From the NCBI GenBank assembly GCA_003599295.1, contig QZJK01000011.1:13372-77371 (forward strand): 64,000 nucleotides of DNA, in the 5' to 3' direction. Below, piece after piece: positions 3,702 to 50,920 of the stretch. The DNA comes from Candidatus Parcubacteria bacterium. Lineage in GTDB: Bacteria; Patescibacteriota; Minisyncoccia; Phycocordibacterales; UBA2100. The position numbers and the translations under genes were made by a program. The notes beneath the pieces are model-generated. The model did no database searches. It was not told the DNA's origin and worked only from the letters and a program-made list of their open reading frames with translations. How positions within the stretch are numbered: the first letter of the stretch is position 1; each line of letters begins with the position of its first letter.

Positions 3702-3961
3702 GCATAAACATCACAAAGGTGGCGCAAGAAGAATTCCGGTGCTAGTCTGATAAGCACAGGTTGAATATTGGCTCGTGAGAGCAAGACCTAAACCATCGCT
3801 TCGGCGGTGGCATGGTCGGGTAGACCGGTAAAGGACAGAAAACCCGTTGTGGGAACTGCCTTTACCGGCCATGTCGGGAAACCGGCGTGGATGGGGCTTC
3901 GGCTCCGTCAACCCGCAGCGGGCTTTGTGTTTTATCGGATAAAGTGATAAATAGATTGCGT

Positions 3962-4807
3962 ATGTTCGACTTTTTCCAAGCTATATTCGCAAAAATAACC
4001 TCATTTGTAGTTGGGGTCGTTATGGCCACTGGGTTAGTTCCCCCTCCTACAGCTCAACCATTGGCGACATCTACGGAACAGGTAGCTCTAGAGGTCATTC
4101 AAGAAGAAAGCGCTACAAGCTCACAGTCCGCCTCAGATCCTGAAGGATTTGGAAAAGAAACAAAAGAGGATGAAGAGGATGCCGACCTAAAAGCGGAGGC
4201 TGAGCGACTTAGAGCTGAACGAGACAGAGCAGAGGCGGCTAGAGCTAAGGCGGATGCGGCACGCGCGAAAGCTGAACAGATACAAATTCTTAACGACACG
4301 GCAAATAAGCTACAGAGCGATTTAGAAAAGACCCTTGCTGAAGAGGAGGCCAAAAAAGCTACTCTCGAAAAAGAGAAACGCGAGGAAGAAACGGCAACTC
4401 ATCAAACTGAGTCGGAAACTAATCTTGCAGAGCAGGAGCGGATGAAGAAGATAGATGAGATTCAAAAAGAATATCTCCTCAAAATTAATGCGCTGGAGAA
4501 GCAGTTGCTTGAACTCGGATTCTTCGACGGCAGAGAAAGAGACATCATTGATATCTACGAAAAATACATGTATTCAGTCCCCGAAGAAGTTAAAGCCGGT
4601 CTCGGATACATTCCTAGTAAGTATCAGTTAAGCGCAGTGACAAGGATATACGTGGCCGCCGAGAATAGAGATAAAACACTGGTGCAGGACAAGCATTACT
4701 CGCTACTCAGTGCTATCAAGGAAGCATTGGGTTCGGTAAAAAGAGAGGTGCGAGATGAAATCAACTTCTTGCAGAATGAGAAGGACAGAAAGATTTTAGA
4801 GGCTTAG
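3962..4807 (+). CDS. Membrane-anchored coiled-coil protein.
   Basis: N-terminal TM helix (FAKITSFVVGVVMATGLV) followed by a long Ala/Glu/Lys-rich heptad-like region (AEAERLRAERDRAEAARAKADAARAKAEQ). Confidence 0.5.
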   Translation: MFDFFQAIFAKITSFVVGVVMATGLVPPPTAQPLATSTEQVALEVIQEESATSSQSASDPEGFGKETKEDEEDADLKAEAERLRAERDRAEAARAKADAARAKAEQIQILNDTANKLQSDLEKTLAEEEAKKATLEKEKREEETATHQTESETNLAEQERMKKIDEIQKEYLLKINALEKQLLELGFFDGRERDIIDIYEKYMYSVPEEVKAGLGYIPSKYQLSAVTRIYVAAENRDKTLVQDKHYSLLSAIKEALGSVKREVRDEINFLQNEKDRKILEA

Positions 4808-5219
4808 GAGCTTGTGCACACGGACATACAGCCCCGATAACTTTATTGACTTTACCTGTTTGTGCGATATGCTTTTACATAGTTCTTTTCATTCAAATAT
4901 AACTTGTGATGGCATGATGGGTTAGAGCTGAAAAGACACATCCTGTCGTCGCGAGAGTCCAACGAATGCGGTTCGTCAACAGAGGCAAGCCAGAATTTTT
5001 GGCTGACACACCTATAACTGGTGGTAAAAACGCTGTGAGAAGCAGCTTTAACTTCTCGAGGTTGTTTTGGGGTTATCAGTTCCTCTCAAAAAATGGAGTA
5101 GGCACCTCTGAGGCAGAAATGTGTTGAGTTGGTAATTCGATAGCATGCTTTTTGAGCGTGCCCATATTGAGTTACCAATTCGACACATCGTAAGATTTAG
5201 GTAACACATAAAGGCAGAG

Positions 5220-5244
5220 AAGCGGCTATCGATGCCGCTTTTTT
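5220..5244 (+). terminator. Rho-independent terminator: aagcggc-tatcgat-gccgctt followed by TTTTTT.
   Basis: Perfect 7-bp stem plus a T6 run, read directly. Confidence 0.55.
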
Positions 5245-5349
5245 GTTTGCGGCATCCTTCCACAAGCGAAGCCCTCTTTTGGGTTGGCAGTCTCATGGAA
5301 GGAGCTGCCAAGCCAATAGCGGGCTTTATCAATTATTAGTAGCCACAAT

Positions 5350-5571
5350 ATGCTTGGAAAAGTAAAGTCCATAGTCATTTTTGCTCCCAAGAAGCGGCGG
5401 ATCAACATCGAGGTCAATGGTGTCATTGCGAAGACGTTCATAGTCGATGGTTATGGGAACAGTAAACGGTGGGAAAAGGTAAGCGTGGGAGACCTGTTAG
5501 ATGGGCTCGATTGGGCTGAGGAAGAATCTCGCATCATAGACGCTGATTCCAAAATCACCGTTCTTAAATAG
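5350..5571 (+). CDS. Hypothetical 73-aa protein directly upstream of the recombinase.
   Basis: ORF only. Its position is reminiscent of a directionality factor, but there is no sequence support. Confidence 0.25.
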   Translation: MLGKVKSIVIFAPKKRRINIEVNGVIAKTFIVDGYGNSKRWEKVSVGDLLDGLDWAEEESRIIDADSKITVLK

Positions 5572-5765
5572 TCCCATGATTAGTGTCGAGAAGTGCAGGG
5601 AACTATTGGGCGATGAGAGCCTCACAGACGAGCAAATTGAGGCTCTCAGAACCGATTTATACGAGATGGCGCAACTTGCCTTCGAGACGTGGGTGCACGA
5701 AAAATACGGTTCCAAATATCCCATTGGGTCATTGCCGGATTCACTATGAGCGCTACAGTTTAGCT

Positions 5766-7295
5766 ATGGGGAATGAAGGTCAAAAAACAAGTATCATTTA
5801 CGCAAGAGTCTCTTCATGGGAGCAGGTTTCGAACACCAGCCTTGAACGGCAAGTGCGCGAATGCAGAGAGTATGCGGAGCGGAACGGTATCACTATCATC
5901 GCGGAGCCGTTCATTGAGGAGGGCGAGTCTGCAAAGAGCGCAGACAGAACTCAGTTCCAAAAAGCACTGAGCTTTTGCGCTACCAAGAAAAACAAAGTTG
6001 GATATTTAATCGTGCACAAAGTAGACCGCTTCGCTCGCAATCAAGACGATCATGTTGCCACACGGGCATTTCTCAAACGATACGGAGTGCAACTACGCTC
6101 AGTGATGGAACCGATAGACGAGAGCACAATCGGACGACTTCAAGAGGGTATCCTCTCGGTGTTTGCGGAGTTCGATAACAATGTGCGAGCGGAGAGAAGC
6201 AAAAACGGGATGATAGAGAAAGTGAAGAAAGGCATTTGGGTATGGAGGCCTCCACTTGGCTACAAACGACTCACTAAAGGCGGCAACATCGTGCCTGAGG
6301 AAGAAACAGCCCATTACATCCAGCTGATATTCGAGGAATATAGCAAAGGCACTTATAGTTTTCAGGCGTTGTCCGATTTCATGGAAAAACGTGGATTCAG
6401 GACGAGCACCGGTAAAAAACCGTGCGCACAACTCATGGAAAAGATTCTTCGCAACCCTGCTTACTTCGGAACGATTCGAGCGTGGGGGCATGAGATTCGG
6501 GGTGCATTTCCTGCAATAGTTAGTGAGGAGTTGTATTGGAAGTGTCAGCCGGAGTTGCGCAGCAGGTTTGCCATAGTAAATCGTAGTATCACCAATCCGG
6601 CATTTCCTCTCCGCAAGTTCACAATTTGCCCTGAGTGCGGCCGCCCGCTTACAGGAAGCTTCTCCACCGGCAGAAAAGGAATGAAATACCCTTACTATCA
6701 TCACCAGAAGCAATCATGCTCTGCTGCGTCGTTTATCCCGAAGGAAACGCTGGAACAGCACTTCGTAGAGTTCCTACAAGAAATTAGTCCGCGTGCGCGG
6801 AACGAGAGGCTATTTAAGGCAGTTGTCGTTGATTTATGGCAAAAGAATTACAAGAAGTTGGATGAGGACAACGTGCGTGTCCGTAGGGAGATAGAATGGC
6901 TTGAGGCAGAACGTCAGCGGGTTTTTGATATGCACCGCACTGGCAAATATTCGGATGACGAGTTTTTAGAGCAGAAGCACCTTGTAAACATTCAGATTCA
7001 GCAAAAGAAGAATCTACTCGATGATAAGCGCATTGAGGAGTTCAACATGGACGAAGCACTTACCTATTGCTTCAACTACGTGCGCGAAAGTGGCAAGACA
7101 TGGAAACGGCTTGAGAAGGTTCCGGCGATACGTGTGCGGTTCCAAAAAGCCGCGTTCCCTGAAAAAGTGACTTTTGACGGCAAGAAATTTGGAACCAAGA
7201 AAATGTCGCTCGTTTACGAGCTGAATCAGGGGAAGAACCCCAAAAAATCTCAGATGGTGACCCTATCGGGAATCGAACCCGAGTTAACAGCTTGA
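5766..7295 (+). CDS. Large serine recombinase (resolvase/integrase family).
   Basis: N-terminal resolvase catalytic region IIYARVSS..Q..SLERQ. Then DRFARN, a recombinase domain and a zinc-ribbon (CPECGRP...). The last ~13 codons are antisense of tRNA-Glu, so the true C-terminus may be slightly different. Confidence 0.85.
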   Translation: MGNEGQKTSIIYARVSSWEQVSNTSLERQVRECREYAERNGITIIAEPFIEEGESAKSADRTQFQKALSFCATKKNKVGYLIVHKVDRFARNQDDHVATRAFLKRYGVQLRSVMEPIDESTIGRLQEGILSVFAEFDNNVRAERSKNGMIEKVKKGIWVWRPPLGYKRLTKGGNIVPEEETAHYIQLIFEEYSKGTYSFQALSDFMEKRGFRTSTGKKPCAQLMEKILRNPAYFGTIRAWGHEIRGAFPAIVSEELYWKCQPELRSRFAIVNRSITNPAFPLRKFTICPECGRPLTGSFSTGRKGMKYPYYHHQKQSCSAASFIPKETLEQHFVEFLQEISPRARNERLFKAVVVDLWQKNYKKLDEDNVRVRREIEWLEAERQRVFDMHRTGKYSDDEFLEQKHLVNIQIQQKKNLLDDKRIEEFNMDEALTYCFNYVRESGKTWKRLEKVPAIRVRFQKAAFPEKVTFDGKKFGTKKMSLVYELNQGKNPKKSQMVTLSGIEPELTA

Positions 7296-7329
7296 AAAGC
7301 TGCTGTCCTAACCACTAGACGATAGGGCC
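7255..7329 (-). tRNA. tRNA-Glu, anticodon TTC, CCA encoded.
   Basis: Minus-strand sequence GGCCCTATCGTCTAGTGGTTAGGACAGCAGCTTTTCAAGCTGTTAACTCGGGTTCGATTCCCGATAGGGTCACCA folds as a cloverleaf with anticodon loop TTTTCAA. Confidence 0.8.
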
Positions 7330-12815: not shown

Positions 12816-13002
12816 GACAGACCACTCTAAAAAGAATGGCTTTGTCCTTCTTTCATCCCGACTGTACGGTCGGCACTGGAATCTCACCAGTTCGTGTCTT
12901 TTTACAGACTCGCGGGCTTTACCGCCGATTGGGACTTACACCCAACCCCGAAGGAACATGCTTAGTATACACGATTTTGAGTCTGTACGGTACCGCTCAA
13001 AC

Positions 13003-13371
13003 CTACTTTGCCAAAAATCCTGACTGACTTCGCACGCGATGTTTGTGCGTTCTCTTTTTGTGAGTCGTTTCAAGAATTTCTTTGAGTTTGCTGAGGCGCG
13101 TATCCCACTCTCGCTCCAGATGGGTAATGAATTTTTTGCCCAACTTCAACGAATTGATATCTAACAGTACTTGTACTTCACGCCCATTTGGTTTGAGGTG
13201 CACGATATTTGCAGACACGAGTACCTGTACTTGTTTTCGTGCTCCTTGTCTTGAGATATCAAGATTCTTGGTGAGACTCCCCATTGTATGTATCGCCCCA
13301 TCAGAAAGACGTTTGACGATCTCCAGTCGCACAGGGTCACCGAGTGCTTTAAAAACTTGAGCTTCTGTCAT
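13003..13371 (-). CDS. ArsR/SmtB-family HTH transcriptional regulator.
   Basis: ALGDPVRLEIVKRLSDGAIHTMGSLTKNLDISRQGARKQVQVLVSANIV is a winged-helix ArsR signature. Confidence 0.8.
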   Translation of the reverse strand: MTEAQVFKALGDPVRLEIVKRLSDGAIHTMGSLTKNLDISRQGARKQVQVLVSANIVHLKPNGREVQVLLDINSLKLGKKFITHLEREWDTRLSKLKEILETTHKKRTHKHRVRSQSGFLAK

Positions 13372-13808
13372 TTAGGTTTGCTGAAGAACTTCTCGAGACG
13401 ACCGAGCATAAATTCCCATCCTCCGGAATTCTGTTCGAATGCTTTTTCCGCCATACCTTCAGGTAATGCGGCAAAACCGGATTCTGTCATCGTGACCGTA
13501 CACGTTCCGTCCTCTTCTTTGATACTAAACTCGACCAGAGTGTTCGGTACGGTTGACACATCGCCGACAAAGTCACTGCCTCCAGGAATCCATCGATAGG
13601 CAAAGTACTCATAGGGCTTTGCCTCAACGACAGAAATTTGAGATTTGCCGTGTCCCTTAAAGACAAAAACCGGCTGTTCTCCGACCGCGTACGTGCCTTC
13701 TACGGCATCAGGGAACCATAAAATAACTTTCTTAGGATTTGCTATTGCGTCATATACCGCTTCCTTAGAAGCCTTAATGGCTACTTCGCGCTTAATTATG
13801 TCCTGCAT
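13368..13808 (-). CDS. SRPBCC/AHSA1-domain protein. This family is typically a partner of ArsR regulators.
   Basis: 146-aa ORF that overlaps the arsR start by 4 nt. The composition matches the Aha1/polyketide-cyclase-like fold, but it is not diagnostic. Confidence 0.65.
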   Translation of the reverse strand: MQDIIKREVAIKASKEAVYDAIANPKKVILWFPDAVEGTYAVGEQPVFVFKGHGKSQISVVEAKPYEYFAYRWIPGGSDFVGDVSTVPNTLVEFSIKEEDGTCTVTMTESGFAALPEGMAEKAFEQNSGGWEFMLGRLEKFFSKPK

Positions 13809-13865
13809 ACTTTTATGTACGAATTAATTATTAATGCTAATGGACGCAGTATAACAAGACGTGTA

Positions 13866-13895
13866 TAAATATGCAACCATAAAGTTGCATATTTA
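13866..13895. promoter_or_regulatory. 12-bp perfect inverted repeat TAAATATGCAAC-cataaa-GTTGCATATTTA upstream of the SRPBCC-arsR operon. Candidate ArsR operator.
   Basis: Read directly. It lies in the AT-rich promoter region about 60 bp upstream of the operon start. Confidence 0.5.
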
Positions 13896-13899
13896 TGTG

Positions 13900-14139
13900 G
13901 ATACGCTCCAATGTAGACTCAGGTCGTATCACCTTGGCTCCGCGGAGGCGCTGGGCGGCGCTCAGAGTCGCCGCGCGCGTGGCGAAATCACTTTGAATTT
14001 GATTTTTGAGCCACCAGCCGAGCTTGGAAACCCTCGGTTTTCCAACGCGCGCTTCGCGCGCTGCCTTCCGACACGGGGAACTCCCATTCCCCGACCCCCT
14101 CACACGCGAGGCGGCTCTACATTCACTACGTTCACTCTG
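13900..14139 (-). repeat. tRNA-trailer repeat element A, downstream of tRNA-Thr(CGT).
   Basis: Contains an inverted copy of the tRNA acceptor 3' end (agccgcctc), a GGGGTCGGGgaatgggagttCCCCGTG..GAAGG block, a cgcgcgaagcgcgcg hairpin and a ggaaaccc-tcg-ggtttcc hairpin. These are homologous to the elements at 15145-15318, 16046-16217 and 34774-34951. Confidence 0.45.
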
Positions 14140-14212
14140 AGCCGCCTCCCGGGATTGAACCGGGGACCTTATCTTTACGAAAGATACGCTCTACCAACTG
14201 AGCTAAGGCGGC
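14140..14212 (-). tRNA. tRNA-Thr, anticodon CGT.
   Basis: GCCGCCTTAGCTCAGTTGGTAGAGCGTATCTTTCGTAAAGATAAGGTCCCCGGTTCAATCCCGGGAGGCGGCT. Anticodon loop ttCGTaa with U33 in place. Confidence 0.8.
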
Positions 14213-14253
14213 AGTCCTGCAATCCTAATTCATTGAGACGGTATTTTCAATTG

Positions 14254-14325
14254 AGCCGAGGGCGGGAATCGGACCCGCAGTCTACTCCTTACCATGGAGT
14301 TGTTTTACCACTAAACTACCCCGGC
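14254..14325 (-). tRNA. tRNA-Thr, anticodon GGT.
   Basis: GCCGGGGTAGTTTAGTGGTAAAACAACTCCATGGTAAGGAGTAGACTGCGGGTCCGATTCCCGCCCTCGGCT. Anticodon loop atGGTaa. Confidence 0.8.
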
Positions 14326-14340
14326 ATCTCCGCGATACTA

Positions 14341-15000
14341 TCACGCTACGGAATAATTTTGTAATTCCTCAATACTATTTTGTATAGCCGCATCTGAGAT
14401 GTCGTTCCACGCGAGCGATGTATTCGATAGTACCTGCTCCTCGAGTTTCTTGGCGGATTCCGAAAGTCTTCTGAACGATTCCTCGGATCCATAATGCGGT
14501 CGTATCTTGTTCGTCTCCAGATAGCGTCTTCTCCCCTCAAGAAGTCTCTCGATAAGGGGTAGGACGCCATACGGCCCGACGCGAAGGTCGGCATATTCGC
14601 ATACCTTGCGCTCGACCGAAGGGTCTTTCAGCACTTCCTCCAGCTTCGAAAAGCCGAGGCCATCTATCAACGTGCATACGTTTTCCGGGAGGCCCATGTC
14701 TCGTGCGATAGCGGAGTTTGCCGTGTGATGGTCAGCGCCGTATTTTTTCACGTACTCATCTTTCACTCCTTGCCAGTAGACAAGTCCCTGTGGCTCGAGG
14801 AATTCCGGAAAATACGAGAGTTCCGATTTTATGATATTCCCCATGTCGTGAAAGAGGCATGCGAGCACGACGTCCCGCGTGCGTATCGGCTTCTTGAAGT
14901 TCTCGGATACCAGCTTCCCCACCGCCGCCACACGCAGCTGATGAAGTTGGAGGCTCGGCATCACCCGAAATTCGGCGTACAGCTGACGAGGGGTTACCAT
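14341..15000 (-). CDS. HD-domain metal-dependent phosphohydrolase.
   Basis: LFHDMG is an HD motif. The ORF runs to 15036; a start at MVTPRQ (15000) is plausible. Confidence 0.65.
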   Translation of the reverse strand: MVTPRQLYAEFRVMPSLQLHQLRVAAVGKLVSENFKKPIRTRDVVLACLFHDMGNIIKSELSYFPEFLEPQGLVYWQGVKDEYVKKYGADHHTANSAIARDMGLPENVCTLIDGLGFSKLEEVLKDPSVERKVCEYADLRVGPYGVLPLIERLLEGRRRYLETNKIRPHYGSEESFRRLSESAKKLEEQVLSNTSLAWNDISDAAIQNSIEELQNYSVA

Positions 15001-15144
15001 GCACTCATGTGACCGTGCCGACGATGCTTCTCGCAAAATCGAGTATCAAGCTCAGGATCTGGATGAGAAACCCAACGAACAGTTCCAAAAAACGGAGGAG
15101 GAACGATAAGAGCATTTCGAGAAGTCCCTTGAGTGCTTCCATAT

Positions 15145-15318
15145 GCCTATAAGTTTACCATTTTGCGCGAGCGACCGGATAAGAACTTCTGGAAAACCCA
15201 CGGTTTTCCCATTCCTTCCTCCACGGGAAAACAAATGTTTTCCCGACCCCTTTCCCCTTCAAATCCGGTCTTTCGTTCAGCAAAATGGACCCGCGTACAC
15301 GAGTCCATTTTGTCGATG
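15145..15318 (-). repeat. tRNA-trailer repeat element B, downstream of tRNA-Asp. It ends in a 16-nt direct repeat of the tRNA 3' end.
   Basis: gcgcgagcgaccggat is present at 15145-15160 and again at 15318-15333 within the tRNA. There is an inverted T-loop copy (gaccggatttgaa), a GGGGTCGGGAAAAC block, and hairpins ggaaaacc-cac-ggttttcc and gggaaaac-aaat-gttttccc. Confidence 0.5.
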
Positions 15319-15392
15319 CGCGAGCGACCGGATTTGAACCGGCGACCTTTCCCGTGACAGGGGAACGCTCTAACCAGCTGAGCTACGCCCGC
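15319..15392 (-). tRNA. tRNA-Asp, anticodon GTC.
   Basis: GCGGGCGTAGCTCAGCTGGTTAGAGCGTTCCCCTGTCACGGGAAAGGTCGCCGGTTCAAATCCGGTCGCTCGCG. Anticodon loop ctGTCac. Confidence 0.8.
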
Positions 15393-15469
15393 AAGTGAGG
15401 AGCAAAGAGCATGCTTGCATGCTTTTTCTCCGAATGCCGCGGGCGTATGAGCCATGCGATTACGCCCGC
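15393..15469 (-). repeat. Conserved about 80-bp tRNA upstream leader repeat, copy 1, in front of tRNA-Asp.
   Basis: About 80% identical to 15577-15668. Shared blocks are agtgaggagcaaa, ctttttctccgaa and tatgag..cgattacgcc. It contains a copy of the tRNA 5' end (gcgggcgta) in a 9-bp hairpin, gcgggcgta-N13-tacgcccgc. Confidence 0.5.
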
Positions 15470-15508
15470 AAACGACGGCCATTCTAGCAGAAGTTTCCTT
15501 CCGTGTCG

Positions 15509-15575
15509 TGGTGCCGGCGCCAGGAGTTGAACCTGGGACCTAGCGCTTATGAAACGCTCGCTCTAACCACCTGAG
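15509..15575 (-). tRNA. tRNA-Met, anticodon CAT. Elongator Met or Ile2-type; these cannot be distinguished by eye. CCA is encoded.
   Basis: GCCGGCGTAGCTCAGGTGGTTAGAGCGAGCGTTTCATAAGCGCTAGGTCCCAGGTTCAACTCCTGGCGCCGGCACCA. Anticodon loop ttCATaa. Confidence 0.75.
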
Positions 15576-15576
15576 C

Positions 15577-15668
15577 TACGCCGGCCTAGTGAGGAGCAAA
15601 AAGGATGCTAGCGTCCTTTTTCTCCGAACGCCGCCGGAGTATGAGAAATACTCGATTACGCCGGCGTA
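15577..15668 (-). repeat. Conserved tRNA upstream leader repeat, copy 2, in front of tRNA-Met(CAT).
   Basis: Homologous to 15393-15469. It contains a copy of the tRNA-Met 5' end (gccggcgta) plus an inverted partner. Confidence 0.5.
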
Positions 15669-15727
15669 CAGAAAATCTACTAGACTTCGCCTACTCCAGC
15701 AAGCAAAACATATACTATAATTCTCTC

Positions 15728-15916
15728 ATGGGGCGTTTTTGGAATCTGGTTCTCACTATCAACTCCGCGCTTCTTGTCTGTGCGAGCGTCTTTCTCGTTT
15801 ATTCGTTCGGGACAATGCTCATCTTTTTCGAATGGAAACAGTTCGTACTTGCGCTCACTATTTTTATCGTACTCATAGGAACAGAGATGGTCTTCAATAC
15901 ACTCTGTCACGACTGA
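15728..15916 (+). CDS. Hypothetical small two-TM membrane protein.
   Basis: MGRFWNLVLTINSALLVCASVFLVYSFGTMLIFFEWKQFVLALTIFIVLIGTE. The upstream part of the 15605 ORF overlaps the tRNA leader repeat. Confidence 0.3.
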   Translation: MGRFWNLVLTINSALLVCASVFLVYSFGTMLIFFEWKQFVLALTIFIVLIGTEMVFNTLCHD

Positions 15917-15973
15917 GGTTGTTCCTTGCGATTTTTTCTTGCGGTGCAAGAAAAAATCAACTATTATTGACTT

Positions 15974-16045
15974 AGCGGGGTGGAGCAGTAGTAGCTCGCA
16001 AGGCTCATAACCTTGAGGTCGCAGGTGCAAGTCCTGCCCCCGCAA
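15974..16045 (+). tRNA. tRNA-Met, anticodon CAT, initiator-like (fMet).
   Basis: aGCGGGGTGGAGCAGTAGTAGCTCGCAAGGCTCATAACCTTGAGGTCGCAGGTGCAAGTCCTGCCCCCGCAA is near-identical in blocks to E. coli tRNA-fMet (GGGGTGGAGCAG, GGCTCATAACC). The 1:72 pair is unpaired (A:A) and A11:U24 is present. There are only 2 G:C pairs at 30-31 rather than 3. Confidence 0.7.
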
Positions 16046-16217
16046 CAAAAATGTAGAGATAGAAAACTTCCGCAAGTTTATTTTTGATGCGGGGACAGGA
16101 CTGGGAGAGGGTCGGAGAACGGGAGTTTTCTGTGAAGGAGAGCAGTGAGCGGAGCGAGCGTTGAGAACCGTGGGTTCTCAAAGAGGAGCGGAGCGACGAG
16201 TCTAGCCCCCCGCAACA
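16046..16217 (+). repeat. tRNA-trailer repeat element C, downstream of tRNA-fMet. It ends in an 11-nt direct repeat of the tRNA 3' end (cccccgcaaca).
   Basis: Inverted copy of the tRNA 3' end tgcggggacaggact at 16088-16102. Then a GGGAGAGGGTCGGAGAAC block, gagcggagcgagcg and the perfect hairpin ttgagaacc-gtg-ggttctcaa (16161-16181). Direct repeat at 16207-16217. Confidence 0.5.
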
Positions 16218-16221
16218 AGCA

Positions 16222-16938
16222 TCATTGAATGTAGCCGAACTCGCGGAACACTTTTTCGTAGAGGCCGATAACACGCCGAGCTTCGCGCTGATTCAGCGCA
16301 TGTTCGGTGCCATCGTGTGCGATGCGATTCCGTATTTTGTGCGCCTCCCACGCGGCATCGATGGAGTTAAAACTTGCACGGTTTGCTTGCTTCATTTTCT
16401 CCGCCATTGTCTCGCCTTTCAGACCCTGCATATCGAGAAGCTCATTCAGCATGATATCCGCCTCAAGAATGGCGAGGCGCCACCCATGCTCCGCGCCGCC
16501 GCGTGCCTGCTCCAATACCCTCGCCCAGCGAAGCTGGGTTCTCGGAATATCTTTCGAGGCGACCGGTCGTTGTGCGGCCGCAAGCATTTTTCTCTCATGA
16601 CGGCGGAGGAAATATACGCGCGCTCCGCAGTAGGCGGCAACGGCGATGAACGGAAGGCTTACCGCAACGGAAAGGAGCACGAATACGTACCATCCTTGCG
16701 CTATCGCACTATACGTTTCTGGCCCCGACACGCTTTCTAAAAACACGGGAAAATTCGAGGCGCTTAACGGCCACGCGAGCGGACGGACTGCTTCTACGGC
16801 CGGCTCCGCCGCAGGACCTGCGTTATTTATGGAATTGAATATGGTCGCGATGACACTCGGCACCCAATTGAACACGACGTCGCCGAAAAATCCGAACGTA
16901 TCCGACAGCGATTCACCGAGCGTTGGTTCCCCACCCAT
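16222..16938 (-). CDS. Hypothetical membrane protein.
   Basis: 238-aa ORF with hydrophobic segments (WYVFVLLSVAVSLPFIAVAAY) and no recognisable motif. Confidence 0.5.
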   Translation of the reverse strand: MGGEPTLGESLSDTFGFFGDVVFNWVPSVIATIFNSINNAGPAAEPAVEAVRPLAWPLSASNFPVFLESVSGPETYSAIAQGWYVFVLLSVAVSLPFIAVAAYCGARVYFLRRHERKMLAAAQRPVASKDIPRTQLRWARVLEQARGGAEHGWRLAILEADIMLNELLDMQGLKGETMAEKMKQANRASFNSIDAAWEAHKIRNRIAHDGTEHALNQREARRVIGLYEKVFREFGYIQ

Positions 16939-34684: not shown

Positions 34685-34773
34685 GGAGAGGTGGCCGAGT
34701 GGTCGAAGGCGGCACGGTGCTAACGTGTTAGGCGGGTAAAACTGTCTCGAGGGTTCGAATCCCTCCCTCTCCG
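34685..34773 (+). tRNA. tRNA-Ser, anticodon GCT, with long variable arm.
   Basis: GGAGAGGTGGCCGAGTGGTCGAAGGCGGCACGGTGCTAACGTGTTAGGCGGGTAAAACTGTCTCGAGGGTTCGAATCCCTCCCTCTCCG. Confidence 0.8.
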
Positions 34774-34951
34774 CAGATTTGAACGCAGTGAGAATACTGC
34801 GGAGAGGAGCAAGCGCTTCGCGCTTGCGTGGAGGGATTCGAAAGTGAGCGCGGGGTGCCTGTTCAGTAGGACGGGTCGCGCGAGCAGGCCCGAGCGGAGC
34901 GAGGAGCGACGGCGACGAGCGAGCTCTTGGGAGCATCCCTCCCTCTCCGCA
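34774..34951 (+). repeat. tRNA-trailer repeat element D, downstream of tRNA-Ser(GCT). It ends in a 17-nt direct repeat of the tRNA 3' end (atccctccctctccgca).
   Basis: Direct repeat at 34759-34775 and 34935-34951. Inverted copies tgcggagaggag and cgtggagggattcgaa, the hairpin caagcgcttcgcgcttg, and the gagcggagcgaggagcgacg block shared with element C. Confidence 0.5.
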
Positions 34952-50532: not shown

Positions 50533-50920
50533 GGGGGTGACTGGCTTCGACAAGGAAATCGACATATGTGTGCGCGGGCAACGCTGTAGCTGCGTTTCAA
50601 ACCGCTACACAAATTCAAGTGCGAACAAAGTAGCACGTGCAGTTTTGTCGCCCATTCAGTTGGGTGACCTGCAGTTCGCTTACGCGAAAGCCTAAGCGAC
50701 CGTCCACTAGGCTGATACTTGATTAAGCCTTCTTGGGCGTCACTTCATTCAAGCACTGAGTGTCGAATAGTCCGATCGACCTCTAAGACTAGGACTCGGC
50801 TTTGCGCGATTCTGTTCGTCCCTTACGCGCATCGCTTAAATCTTGAGACGATCTACGCCTCGTAGATACATACATACTGTTTTTCCTTGGACTCGGGTCC
50901 GATACCCGACACCTCCACCA
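50533..50920 (+). ncRNA. ssrA: tmRNA (transfer-messenger RNA).
   Basis: 5' GGGGGTGACTGGCTTCGACAAGGAAATCGAC is the canonical tmRNA start. The 3' tRNA-like end is GGACTCGGGTCCGATACCCGACACCTCCACCA. The internal tag ORF ends in ...LQFAYAKA-stop. It sits directly after smpB and is followed by a terminator. Confidence 0.85.

What the first reader, a model, noticed from the sequence alone, without database searches (positions are those of the whole stretch)
15145..16217. Family of about 130-240 bp repeat elements downstream of tRNA genes; each begins with an inverted copy of the tRNA 3' end and three of the four end with a direct copy
Four tRNAs are each followed by a non-coding element with the same architecture. 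These are Thr-CGT (13900-14139), Asp-GTC (15145-15318), fMet-CAT (16046-16217) and Ser-GCT (34774-34951).

The layout is: tRNA 3' end, then about 25-45 nt, then an inverted copy of 8-15 nt of the tRNA T-arm/acceptor 3' strand, then about 100 nt of structured body, then a direct repeat of the tRNA 3' end (16, 11 and 17 nt for Asp, fMet and Ser).

The bodies share motifs:
- GGGGTCGG(G/A)GAA...CCCGTG..GAAGG (elements A, B, C).
- A perfect hairpin with an AACC-GNG-GGTT core. In C it is ttgagaaccgtgggttctcaa and in B it is ggaaaacccacggttttcc. Element A has the related ggaaaccctcggtttcc.
- GAGCGGAGCGA / GGAGCGACG / GACGAG (C and D).
- A gcgc(g)cttcgcgc hairpin (A and D).

Read another way, each element is a 130-160 bp unit whose two ends are inverted repeats that mimic a tRNA acceptor end (TGCGGGG... 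in C, TGCGGAGAGG... in D). That is the layout of a MITE-like element.

The alternatives are a tRNA-targeting integrase att remnant (attL/attR with a duplicated tRNA 3' end), or a co-transcribed structured trailer RNA.

I am not aware of a described family with this architecture.
Basis: seen in the sequence. Interest (0 to 1): 0.75.

Follow-up and report, generated by a model that had tools for sequence, protein, structure and literature searches.

The report
Tiny gene-end-replacing mobile elements in Patescibacteria
The four stretches after tRNA genes are copies of a widespread, apparently undescribed family of 130-180 bp non-coding mobile insertions in Patescibacteria (CPR bacteria) that settle at the ends of tRNA and other conserved genes, supply a new gene end and leave the old one behind as a short repeat.

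Summary
Four tRNAs (Thr-CGT, Asp, fMet, Ser-GCT) are each followed by a spacer, an inverted copy of the tRNA 3' end, a structured body and a direct copy of the tRNA 3' end (17, 11 and 17 nt exact; degenerate for Thr).

They are insertions. A related contig (L002) has the identical tRNA-Asp with no element, and the gap is bounded exactly by the 17-nt repeat.

Elements A, B and C share a two-hairpin core. Its pattern matched at least 119 stretches of genome contigs, nearly all labelled as Patescibacteria lineages. Of 126 core copies, 74 lie within 200 nt downstream of a tRNA of any type. Other copies sit at tmRNA, rpmG and other protein-gene ends, always with matching repeats.

The inverted copy sits about 7 nt from the core and straddles the repeat junction (-7 to +8). 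It pairs best with the gene's own end. Stem wobble pairs and GCGAAGC mini-hairpins are strongly strand-biased.

No linked recombinase, Rfam family or paper was found.

A second, related family inserts at tRNA 5' ends (two copies here).

Best reading: non-autonomous, gene-end-replacing integrative elements acting through a folded single strand. The enzyme and the mechanism are inferred, not shown.

The parts
14139..14212 (-). tRNA-Thr(CGT), target of element A
   Evidence: ARAGORN; Rfam tRNA
14007..14137 (-). Element A. Contains the inverted copy at 14108-14117, the core at 14026-14097 and a degenerate displaced tRNA 3' end at 14007-14022.
   Evidence: Covariance model R1 scores 59.4 bits.
15318..15392 (-). 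tRNA-Asp(GTC), target of element B (3' side) and of a 5' element
   Evidence: Identical 78/78 to L002.
15164..15316 (-). Element B, a 153-bp insertion. Contains a hairpin at 15281-15312, the inverted copy at 15258-15269, the core at 15191-15249 and the 17-nt direct copy at 15164-15180.
   Evidence: Absent from the orthologous site in L002, with flanks aligning on both sides. R1 scores 85.1 bits. DNA fold z = -6.2.
15974..16046 (+). Initiator tRNA-Met, target of element C
16048..16217 (+). Element C. Contains a hairpin at 16064-16079, the inverted copy at 16088-16102, the core at 16109-16181 and the direct copy at 16207-16217.
   Evidence: R1 scores 58.9 bits. DNA fold z = -4.15.
34685..34774 (+). 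tRNA-Ser(GCT), target of element D
34776..34951 (+). Element D, a diverged subfamily without the A-C core. The inverted copy is at 34798-34809 and 34830-34842, split by the hairpin at 34810-34826. The 17-nt direct copy is at 34935-34951.
   Evidence: No R1 match. A homologous element follows the same tRNA in L156, with the same 17-nt repeat.
15393..15469 (-). 5'-end element upstream of tRNA-Asp (77 bp). In tRNA orientation: copy of tRNA nt 1-9 (15461-15469), loop, inverted copy (15439-15447), then the long hairpin CGGAGAAAA..TTTGCTCCTCACTT (15393-15432).
   Evidence: Absent in L002. Family confirmed in metagenomes.
15586..15665 (-). 5'-end element upstream of elongator tRNA-Met (80 bp), same layout as the Asp 5' element
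   Evidence: Absent in L002. Pattern match.

Best explanation
A, B, C and (as a diverged relative) D are small, non-coding, non-autonomous mobile elements of a family spread through Patescibacteria. They integrate at the extreme ends of conserved genes.

At tRNA genes the junction lies at the T-loop/T-stem boundary. After insertion the gene ends in a copy of its own last 12-24 nt. Next comes a hairpin (terminator-like in most family members), then an inverted copy of the gene end, then about 7 nt further a conserved two-hairpin core, a tail, and finally the second copy of the gene end joined to the native flank.

Shown:
- the elements are insertions, with precise empty sites;
- the layout is the same at dozens of different targets;
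- the inverted copy has a fixed geometry relative to the core and to the junction;
- the core is a strand-specific, covarying structure;
- no protein gene travels with it.

Inferred, my preferred mechanism: the element acts as a folded single strand, more likely DNA than RNA. The inverted copy pairs with the tail plus the carried gene-end copy to build a short duplex that imitates the target, with a small central mismatch patch. An unidentified recombinase encoded elsewhere in the genome recognises the core next to this duplex and exchanges strands with the real gene end. The element-borne copy then completes the gene, and the original end is displaced downstream.
For: Insertion polymorphism:
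- L002 carries the identical tRNA-Asp (78/78) but lacks the 153-bp 3' element and the 77-bp 5' element.
- L002 also lacks the 80-bp tRNA-Met 5' element.
- Flanks align on both sides in each case.

Family and distribution:
- 74 of 126 core copies have a same-strand tRNA ending less than 200 nt upstream, covering most isoacceptor types. One copy follows a tmRNA.

Same layout at protein genes:
- Copies sit at the rpmG 3' end, at the 3' end of a small basic protein, and at an RNase H-like 5' end.
- There a perfect 20-29 nt repeat is followed by diverged but homologous coding sequence. For L094 the split is 0 differences in 20 nt, then 8 in 22 (my own hand count on the sequences).
- This is the mark of a recombination junction with a foreign gene end.

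Geometry:
- The inverted copy covers -7 to +8 around the start of the repeat.
- It lies a median 7 to 7.5 nt from the core.
- This holds for tRNA and non-tRNA targets alike.
- It is present at a score of 9 or more in 94 of 117 elements, against 3 of 117 shuffled controls. It matches the proximal copy better in 98 of 117.

Structure:
- Both core hairpins covary.
- Hairpin P1 has 21 G-T against 1 A-C pairs on the element strand.
- GCGAAGC occurs 47 times against 1 for its complement.
- Single-strand DNA folds give z = -6.2 and -4.15.

Core is decoupled from the target: an identical 55-nt core sits at tRNA-Lys, rpmG and tRNA-Asp in three contigs.
Against: - No recombinase, transposase or reverse transcriptase is linked to the elements in 119 loci.
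- The only recombinase in the window is a large serine recombinase at 5583-7292. This type of enzyme does not make 12-24 nt duplications.
- How the inverted and direct copies become matched to a new target is unexplained.
- A single site-specific enzyme serving more than 20 different target sequences has no precedent unless its specificity is read from the element's own stem.
- No circular or excised form, and no transcript, has been observed.
- The loci were collected with a strict core pattern, so the invariance of the core is partly built in.
Confidence: 0.6

Rival explanations
1. Homologous-recombination hitchhiker. No dedicated enzyme exists. The element spreads between related genomes by natural transformation. 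The conserved gene (for example the tRNA) serves as the left homology arm and the carried direct copy of the gene end as the short right arm. The core and the inverted copy do something else, such as stabilising incoming single-stranded DNA or benefiting the host as a terminator or insulator.
For: - Targets are the most conserved sequences available: tRNAs, tmRNA, rpmG.
- The proximal gene end looks foreign in protein-gene cases.
- At tRNA-Thr the displaced remnant resembles the L001 allele, while the working tRNA is the L002 allele.
- No linked protein gene.
- Competence genes are present in the window: ComF, plus pilus and secretion genes that could serve uptake, a type II/IV secretion ATPase and a T2SS F protein and PilM (named by reading the ORF translation).
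- Tandem copies occur.
Against: - It does not explain the fixed geometry of the inverted copy: -7 to +8 across the junction and 7 nt from the core, the same at unrelated targets.
- It does not explain the strand-specific conservation of the core.
- It does not explain how identical cores reach unrelated targets.
- A right arm of 9-17 nt is very short for RecA-type recombination (established knowledge).
Confidence: 0.2
2. RNA-based element. It is a structured RNA co-transcribed with the tRNA as trailer (3' family) or leader (5' family) and cut out by tRNA-processing enzymes, because its closing stem imitates the acceptor/T-arm. It has a cellular function, or it is copied back into DNA by a reverse transcriptase (retro-homing).
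For: - Wobble bias on the sense strand and covarying hairpins.
- The inserted unit runs from one tRNA-like processing site to the next.
- The native promoter-like site of tRNA-Asp lies upstream of the 5' element, so the element would be transcribed as part of the leader (L002 comparison).
Against: - 39 of 63 well-defined elements have a hairpin followed by a T-run between the gene end and the rest of the element. This would stop co-transcription.
- Elements at the 5' ends of protein genes lie antisense to the gene, so no common RNA-end logic holds.
- GCGAAGC is known as an exceptionally stable DNA, not RNA, mini-hairpin (from memory: Hirao and colleagues, 1990s).
- No reverse transcriptase was found in the window or near the elements.
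- No Rfam family matches.
Confidence: 0.12
3. Decayed attL/attR scars of ordinary integrase-borne islands or prophages that once sat in these tRNA genes.
For: - Duplications start in the T-loop and run to the 3' end, as for many tyrosine integrases (established knowledge: Williams 2002).
- Serial fossil tRNA 3' halves occur in some loci (L008, L020).
Against: - The same about 55-80 nt core lies between the repeats in more than 100 genomes and at more than 20 targets. Independent deletions would not leave this.
- No integrase lies nearby.
- The core pattern is absent from 2.9 million viral contigs.
- The inverted copy has no counterpart in att scars.
Confidence: 0.04
4. A classical MITE: terminal inverted repeats plus a fixed target-site duplication, moved by the transposase of a parent insertion sequence.
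For: Small size, hairpin potential, multiple copies, presence/absence polymorphism.
Against: - The inverted copy is not at the left terminus of the insert. The spacer of 21-48 nt is part of the insert.
- The 'right repeat' is target sequence.
- Duplication length varies from 9 to 29 nt.
- The repeats differ for every target.
- No transposase was found in the window or among neighbouring genes.
Confidence: 0.03

Closest known systems
Integrative genetic elements that target tRNA and other conserved gene ends through tyrosine integrases (T-loop sublocation class)
   Same: - Insertion inside the 3' part of a tRNA gene, starting in or next to the T-loop.
- The element supplies a replacement gene end, so the gene stays intact.
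- The original end is displaced and remains as a direct repeat.
- Tandem and serial insertions occur.
   Different: - 130-180 bp and non-coding, with no integrase.
- One structural family serves essentially all tRNAs, plus tmRNA and protein-gene ends on either side (5' or 3').
- It carries an inverted copy of the target at a fixed distance from a conserved structured core.
Recombination sites formed by folded single-stranded DNA: integron attC sites, and the CTX-phage attP(+) used by XerCD
   Same: - Function inferred from a strand-specific hairpin, not from a duplex sequence.
- In CTX, two inverted target-like half sites fold to imitate the chromosomal target. After integration one end reads 'inverted copy - loop - direct hybrid copy', as here.
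- Imperfect stems with a central mismatch.
   Different: - Those systems have one fixed target (attI or dif) and known enzymes (IntI, XerCD). Here the imitated target differs from copy to copy, and no enzyme is known.
- Single-strandedness and DNA chemistry are inferred, not shown.
REP/BIME/REPIN elements moved by RAYT transposases, and palindrome-associated derivatives of IS200/IS605
   Same: - Short non-coding hairpin elements at gene ends.
- Moved in trans by a single-copy enzyme acting on single-stranded DNA.
- Strand asymmetry.
   Different: - Those elements carry no copy of the neighbouring gene, make no long duplication and do not replace gene ends.
- No RAYT or TnpA was found near the elements or in the window.
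MITEs
   Same: Small, non-autonomous, structured, polymorphic insertions.
   Different: - No true terminal inverted repeats.
- No fixed target-site duplication.
- No parent insertion sequence.
Guide-plus-scaffold systems of mobile elements (IS110 bridge RNA, TnpB/IscB omega RNA)
   Same: A target-complementary segment of about 14 nt at a fixed distance from a conserved structured scaffold. The segment spans the insertion junction.
   Different: - Those RNAs are encoded inside elements that also encode the enzyme.
- They leave no 12-24 nt duplication and no replacement gene end.
- The resemblance is architectural only and was not tested.

Membership tests
MITE | Inverted repeats at the two termini of the inserted unit | tested here: not met
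   The empty site in L002 shows that the insert begins directly after the tRNA and includes a 48-nt spacer before the inverted copy. The inverted copy pairs best with the gene's own end.
MITE | Target-site duplication of fixed short length | tested here: not met
   Direct copies range from 9 nt (5' family) through 11-17 nt (window) to 29 nt. In protein-gene cases they continue as diverged homologous sequence.
MITE | A parent insertion sequence or transposase with matching ends | tested here: not met
   No transposase among the window ORFs. None enriched within 3 kb of 119 loci.
Integrase-borne tRNA-targeting integrative element (or its att remnant) | Direct repeat of the tRNA 3' part that begins in a loop (T-loop or anticodon loop) and flanks the insert | tested here: met
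   Repeats start at the T-loop/T-stem boundary and run to or past the discriminator base in 44 tRNA-linked copies.
Integrase-borne tRNA-targeting integrative element (or its att remnant) | An integrase gene inside the element, next to one att site | tested here: not met
   The elements are 131-176 bp and non-coding. No integrase is nearby.
Integrase-borne tRNA-targeting integrative element (or its att remnant) | One conserved target per integrase/att family | tested here: not met
   The same core occurs at most tRNA isoacceptor types, at tmRNA and at protein genes.
Folded single-strand recombination site (attC / CTX attP(+) type) | Strand-specific imperfect hairpin that forms the recombination site | tested here: inconclusive
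   Strand bias: G-T 21 against 1, GCGAAGC 47 against 1. The stem straddles the junction. A mismatch patch lies next to the junction (read by eye). All of this is compatible but indirect.
Folded single-strand recombination site (attC / CTX attP(+) type) | A dedicated tyrosine recombinase (IntI or XerCD) acting on it | not testable with these tools
   Whole genomes of the hosts could not be retrieved. None is present in the 64-kb window.
REP/REPIN or IS200/IS605-derived palindromic element | A linked or genome-encoded HUH (RAYT/TnpA) enzyme and insertion without duplication | tested here: not met
   Duplications are present. No such enzyme is in the window or among neighbouring genes. A genome-wide search was not possible.
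Any curated RNA family (Rfam 15) | Match to a covariance model | tested here: not met
   The only matches at gathering score in the region are the tRNAs themselves. Nothing credible appears at E up to 10 over 13800-16300.
Intrinsic transcription terminator | G+C-rich hairpin followed by a T-run directly after the gene | tested here: inconclusive
   39 of 63 family members have a hairpin plus T-run between the gene end and the inverted copy. The hairpins of B and C in the window are weak and were not called by the scan.

The most novel reading that the evidence does not exclude
The inverted copy is a programmable guide. It is a segment of about 14 nt, held 7 nt from a conserved scaffold and spanning the insertion junction. 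It tells an unknown trans-acting enzyme where to insert the element, as folded single-stranded DNA or as RNA. Changing the guide, and the carried gene-end copy, would retarget the element. That would make this a minimal nucleic-acid-guided insertion system that repairs the gene it enters.
Probability: 0.2. Interest if true: 0.95.

Novelty: new variant of a known kind. Interest (0 to 1): 0.8.

Why it matters
- Patescibacteria have tiny genomes and are thought to carry few mobile elements. Here 6 insertions sit on 5 of the 9 tRNA genes in one 64-kb window, and the same design recurs across the phylum.
- The design is a non-coding element that brings a replacement gene end, a hairpin, a target-complementary segment at a fixed distance from a conserved scaffold, and leaves the old gene end as a repeat. 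I found nothing like it in Rfam or in the searchable literature.
- If an enzyme reads the target from the element's own stem, this would be a compact programmable insertion system.
- These elements create tRNA-end fragments that can mislead tRNA annotation and genomic-island callers.
- Their sharp junctions with foreign gene ends are usable markers of recombination and gene flow among uncultured lineages.

Tried and rejected
- **Plain sequence similarity among A-D.** Only 12-16 nt matches, so it is not a high-identity repeat. Motif and structure searches were needed.
- **Rfam at gathering score and at E up to 10.** No family.
- **Viral contigs scanned with the core pattern.** Zero matches, so no phage carrier was found.
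- **Neighbour-gene clustering in 119 loci.** Only housekeeping families (LepA, RF, FtsE, RecG, ribosomal proteins). Free-standing LAGLIDADG/HTH genes occur near tRNAs in about 6 loci, too few to call a partner.
- **Pfam on 40 window ORFs.** One large serine recombinase at tRNA-Glu, judged unrelated because that enzyme class exchanges at a 2-bp core.
- **Exact-protein look-ups to obtain annotated context of the source contig.** Not on record.
- **Native-terminator fold-back idea.** The idea was that the inverted copy is made by snap-back from the gene's own terminator. Rejected as a general account, because the empty tRNA-Asp site in L002 has no hairpin.
- **Possible base triple or pseudoknot.** Looked for between the purine-rich junction (GAGGAAGG) and hairpin P2, and between GTG-N and CCG-N-GG. 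There are correlations by eye in alignment A1, but with many exceptions. Not pursued.
- **Element A as a clean insertion.** The comparison with L001/L002 shows a larger 1.16-kb difference that also contains two genes, so A alone has no clean empty site.
- **Seven paper searches.** No description of such elements. One apparent lead (PMC10714607) concerned rRNA introns and archaeal tRNA introns.
Full report
**1. What is in the window**

ARAGORN finds nine tRNAs and a tmRNA. HD-domain and ComF proteins in the window have their named homologues in Candidatus Kaiserbacteria and Parcubacteria. The host is therefore a member of the Patescibacteria (CPR bacteria).

Read in tRNA orientation, four tRNAs are followed by the same layout:

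| Element | tRNA | Spacer | Inverted copy | Direct copy |
|---|---|---|---|---|
| A, 14007-14137 (-) | Thr-CGT | 21 nt | 10 nt | degenerate |
| B, 15164-15316 (-) | Asp | 48 nt | 12 nt | 17 nt |
| C, 16048-16217 (+) | fMet | 41 nt | 14 of 15 nt | 11 nt |
| D, 34776-34951 (+) | Ser-GCT | 23 nt | 22 nt, split by a hairpin | 17 nt |

- The 17-nt direct repeats of Asp and Ser-GCT exceed all 300 shuffles, as does the 13-nt inverted repeat of Asp. The 13-nt inverted repeat of Ser-GCT only ties the largest shuffle value.
- fMet direct (11) and Thr inverted (10) exceed the shuffle maxima by 1.
- The other five tRNAs show nothing.
- The body motif GGGTCGGRRAA..GTG..AACCGNGGGTT occurs exactly three times in 64 kb, in A, B and C. 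No shuffle produced a match.
- Otherwise the copies hardly align.
- A covariance model of the core finds only A, B and C (85, 59 and 59 bits) and not D.

**2. They are insertions**

Contig L002 encodes a 79%-identical HD protein. It carries the same gene order and an identical tRNA-Asp (78/78).

- In L002 the tRNA is followed at once by the sequence that, in the window, follows the distal 17-nt copy. The 153 bp of element B are simply absent.
A 77-bp block directly upstream of tRNA-Asp, and an 80-bp block upstream of elongator tRNA-Met, are also absent from L002. Each is bounded by a 9-nt copy of the tRNA's first nine bases and contains an inverted copy of them.
- For element A the relatives L001 and L002 lack a larger 1.16-kb segment, made of A plus an ArsR gene and an SRPBCC gene. 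A therefore has no clean empty site.
- For D, a contig with a 91%-identical ComF (L156) has the same tRNA-Ser followed by a homologous but much more diverged element. It has a stronger hairpin and the same 17-nt repeat.

**3. The family is large and general**

Nearly all are labelled as Patescibacteria lineages: Paceibacterota, Kaiser-, Yonath-, Wolfe-, Taylor-, Staskawicz- and Moranbacteria and others. From base frequencies I expected about ten chance matches (my own estimate).

- Of 126 core copies, 74 have a same-strand tRNA ending less than 200 nt upstream. These cover most isoacceptor types. One copy follows a tmRNA.
- In 49 well-resolved cases the order is always the same: gene end; a hairpin, with a T-run in 39 of 63; the inverted copy, ending at the complement of the T-loop; about 7 nt; the core; a tail; then an exact 12-24 nt copy of the tRNA running from the T-loop/T-stem boundary to or beyond the discriminator base.
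- Copies without a tRNA sit at the ends of protein genes: the rpmG 3' end (L094, L099, L106), the 3' end of a small basic protein (L015, L034, L090), and 5' ends on the opposite strand (L032; an RNase H-like gene in L103 and L110).
- In these cases a perfect 20-29 nt repeat is followed by diverged but clearly homologous coding sequence. In L094 I counted 0 differences in 20 nt, then 8 in 22 (a hand count on the sequences). That is what a recombination junction with a foreign gene end looks like, not a drifting duplication.
- Tandem copies occur (L043, L079, L095).
- The pattern is absent from 2.9 million viral contigs.

**4. Anatomy that constrains the mechanism**

- **(a) The inverted copy is general.** It scores 9 or more in 94 of 117 elements, against 3 of 117 shuffled controls. 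It complements the gene's own (proximal) end better than the distal copy in 98 cases, against 5 the other way. Single-strand folds that include the tRNA end put the dominant stem between the tRNA 3' end and the inverted copy, with the small hairpin at the tip (z = -6.2 and -4.15).
- **(b) Its position is fixed relative to the core and the junction, not relative to the gene.** It lies a median 7-7.5 nt from the core and covers -7 to +8 around the first base of the repeat. This holds for tRNA and non-tRNA targets alike. The loop back to the gene end varies, with a median of 31-35 nt.
- **(c) The core is a covarying structure.** It is GGGT, then hairpin P1, then GTG-GAGGAAGG, an optional hairpin, and hairpin P2 (AACCGNGGGTT at its centre). 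Both hairpins covary: GC to AU in 45 sequences for one P1 pair, and up to six standard pair types in P2.
- **(d) It is strand-specific.** P1 has 21 G-T against 1 A-C pairs. GCGAAGC occurs 47 times on the element strand against once for its complement. From memory, d(GCGAAGC) is the classic extraordinarily stable DNA mini-hairpin. This tilts me towards single-stranded DNA rather than RNA, but it is not proof.
- **(e) The tail before the distal repeat often reads GTGAGAT.** This is a T-loop look-alike whose two central bases would face the inverted copy as a tandem G-A mismatch (read; inference).
- **(f) The core is decoupled from the target.** The same 55-nt core sits at tRNA-Lys, rpmG and tRNA-Asp in three contigs.
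- **(g) No protein travels with it.** Neighbouring genes are housekeeping. The only recombinase among the 40 window ORFs scanned is a large serine recombinase at 5583-7292.

**5. The sister family at 5' ends**

The pattern CGGAGAAAA..TTTGCTCCTCACT found 30 metagenomic stretches. About 18 of them end 0-2 nt before a tRNA (Glu, Met, Ala, Arg, Thr, Asp, Phe), and three more lie one element-length (78 nt) upstream as tandem copies.

- Each has a copy of tRNA bases 1-9, a 10-15 nt loop and an inverted copy. Tandem copies occur.
- Read outward from the gene, the order is the same as in the 3' family: gene end, long hairpin, inverted copy, short loop, direct copy.
- The motif AGTGAGGAG next to the gene end is shared with some 3' elements, such as L043.

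I regard the two as one superfamily.

**6. How it most likely works**

*Shown:* these are mobile insertions that keep the target gene intact by ending it with a gene-end copy and pushing a second copy downstream. Targeting is extremely precise and target-specific. A conserved single-strand structure lies next to a target-complementary segment.

*Inferred:* the element is moved in trans by an enzyme encoded elsewhere. It acts as a folded single strand in which the inverted copy and the carried gene-end copy form a duplex that imitates the target. The exchange point lies in the middle of that duplex.

The nearest precedent is the way CTX phage DNA folds two inverted dif-like sites into a target mimic for XerCD. 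After integration that arrangement leaves 'inverted copy - loop - direct hybrid copy' at one end (established knowledge). Here, however, the imitated sequence differs from copy to copy.

The main rival needs no enzyme: transformation plus homologous recombination, with the gene as one arm and the repeat as the other. It explains spread between genomes and the foreign proximal ends. It does not explain the fixed geometry, the conserved core, or movement between unrelated targets.

An RNA-intermediate reading, plain att scars and a classical MITE fit less well (see the rival explanations).

What none of the readings explains is how a new target's sequence gets written into both the inverted and the direct copy.

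**7. Comparison with known systems, and novelty**

In outcome the elements behave like integrase-borne elements that target conserved gene ends and preserve the gene. They fail the defining tests for those elements (no integrase, many targets). They also fail the tests for MITEs (no terminal repeats, no fixed duplication, no parent insertion sequence) and for REP-type elements, and they match no Rfam family.

Seven full-text searches found no description.

I file them as a new, miniature and non-coding variant of gene-end-targeting integrative elements. There is a real chance, about 0.2, that they represent a guide-directed insertion mechanism of a new kind.

Noticed in passing
window 15393-15469 (-) and 15586-15665 (-); loci L006, L126-L155: A second family of 77-80 bp elements is inserted exactly at tRNA 5' ends. 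The layout is: copy of tRNA nt 1-9, loop, inverted copy, then the long hairpin CGGAGAAAA..TTTGCTCCTCACT. Both window copies are absent from L002. About 18 of 30 metagenomic pattern hits abut a tRNA, and three more lie 78 nt upstream as tandem copies.
   Followed up: yes
window 5583-7292 (+), overlapping tRNA-Glu 7255-7329 (-); low-GC stretch 4001-6000; LOOT RNA 3785-3909: A 570-aa large serine recombinase (Resolvase, Recombinase and zinc-ribbon domains) ends inside tRNA-Glu on the opposite strand. It lies next to a lower-GC segment (0.46) and a LOOT RNA match. This looks like a separate integrated element at the tRNA-Glu/tRNA-Ser(CGA) pair.
   Followed up: partly
window 12982-14006, with repeats at 12973-12981 and 14001-14010: A cassette of about 1 kb carries an ArsR-type regulator and an SRPBCC protein. 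It lies between element A and the FMN riboswitch, flanked by CTCAAAATC / CTCAAAAATC. It is absent in L001 and L002, where tRNA-Thr(CGT) is followed directly by the riboswitch.
   Followed up: partly
It has no core and no tRNA-end copy. Its origin is unexplained.
   Followed up: no
window 14139-14212 versus L001 1948-2022 and L002 2162-2237: tRNA-Thr(CGT) in the window is identical to the allele of the more distant L002. The closest relative, L001 (93% HD protein), has a different allele throughout. The displaced remnant at 14007-14022 resembles the L001 allele. This suggests that the whole tRNA gene was replaced together with element A, in a mosaic background.
   Followed up: partly
L006 4202-4897; L023 5475-6158; also L080, L082, L099, L117: Free-standing LAGLIDADG-type or HTH-bearing endonuclease-like genes sit next to tRNA genes within 0.1-1.7 kb of elements in several loci. 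They may be an independent tRNA-adjacent mobile gene, or they may be relevant to double-strand-break-driven spread.
   Followed up: partly
L125 (tmRNA locus); window tmRNA 50533-50920: One family member sits downstream of a tmRNA gene with a copy of its 3' end (CCATCTCCA). The window's own tmRNA has no element, only an ordinary-looking hairpin after it.
   Followed up: no
L008, L020 (upstream of the core copies): Serial partial duplications of tRNA 3' halves (about 40-45 nt, with different acceptor ends) precede the elements. They look like fossils of repeated end-replacement events at the same tRNA.
   Followed up: no
window 12841-12959 (-): An FMN riboswitch (106 bits) lies upstream of an EamA-type transporter gene. 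The arrangement is conserved in L001 and L002.
   Followed up: no
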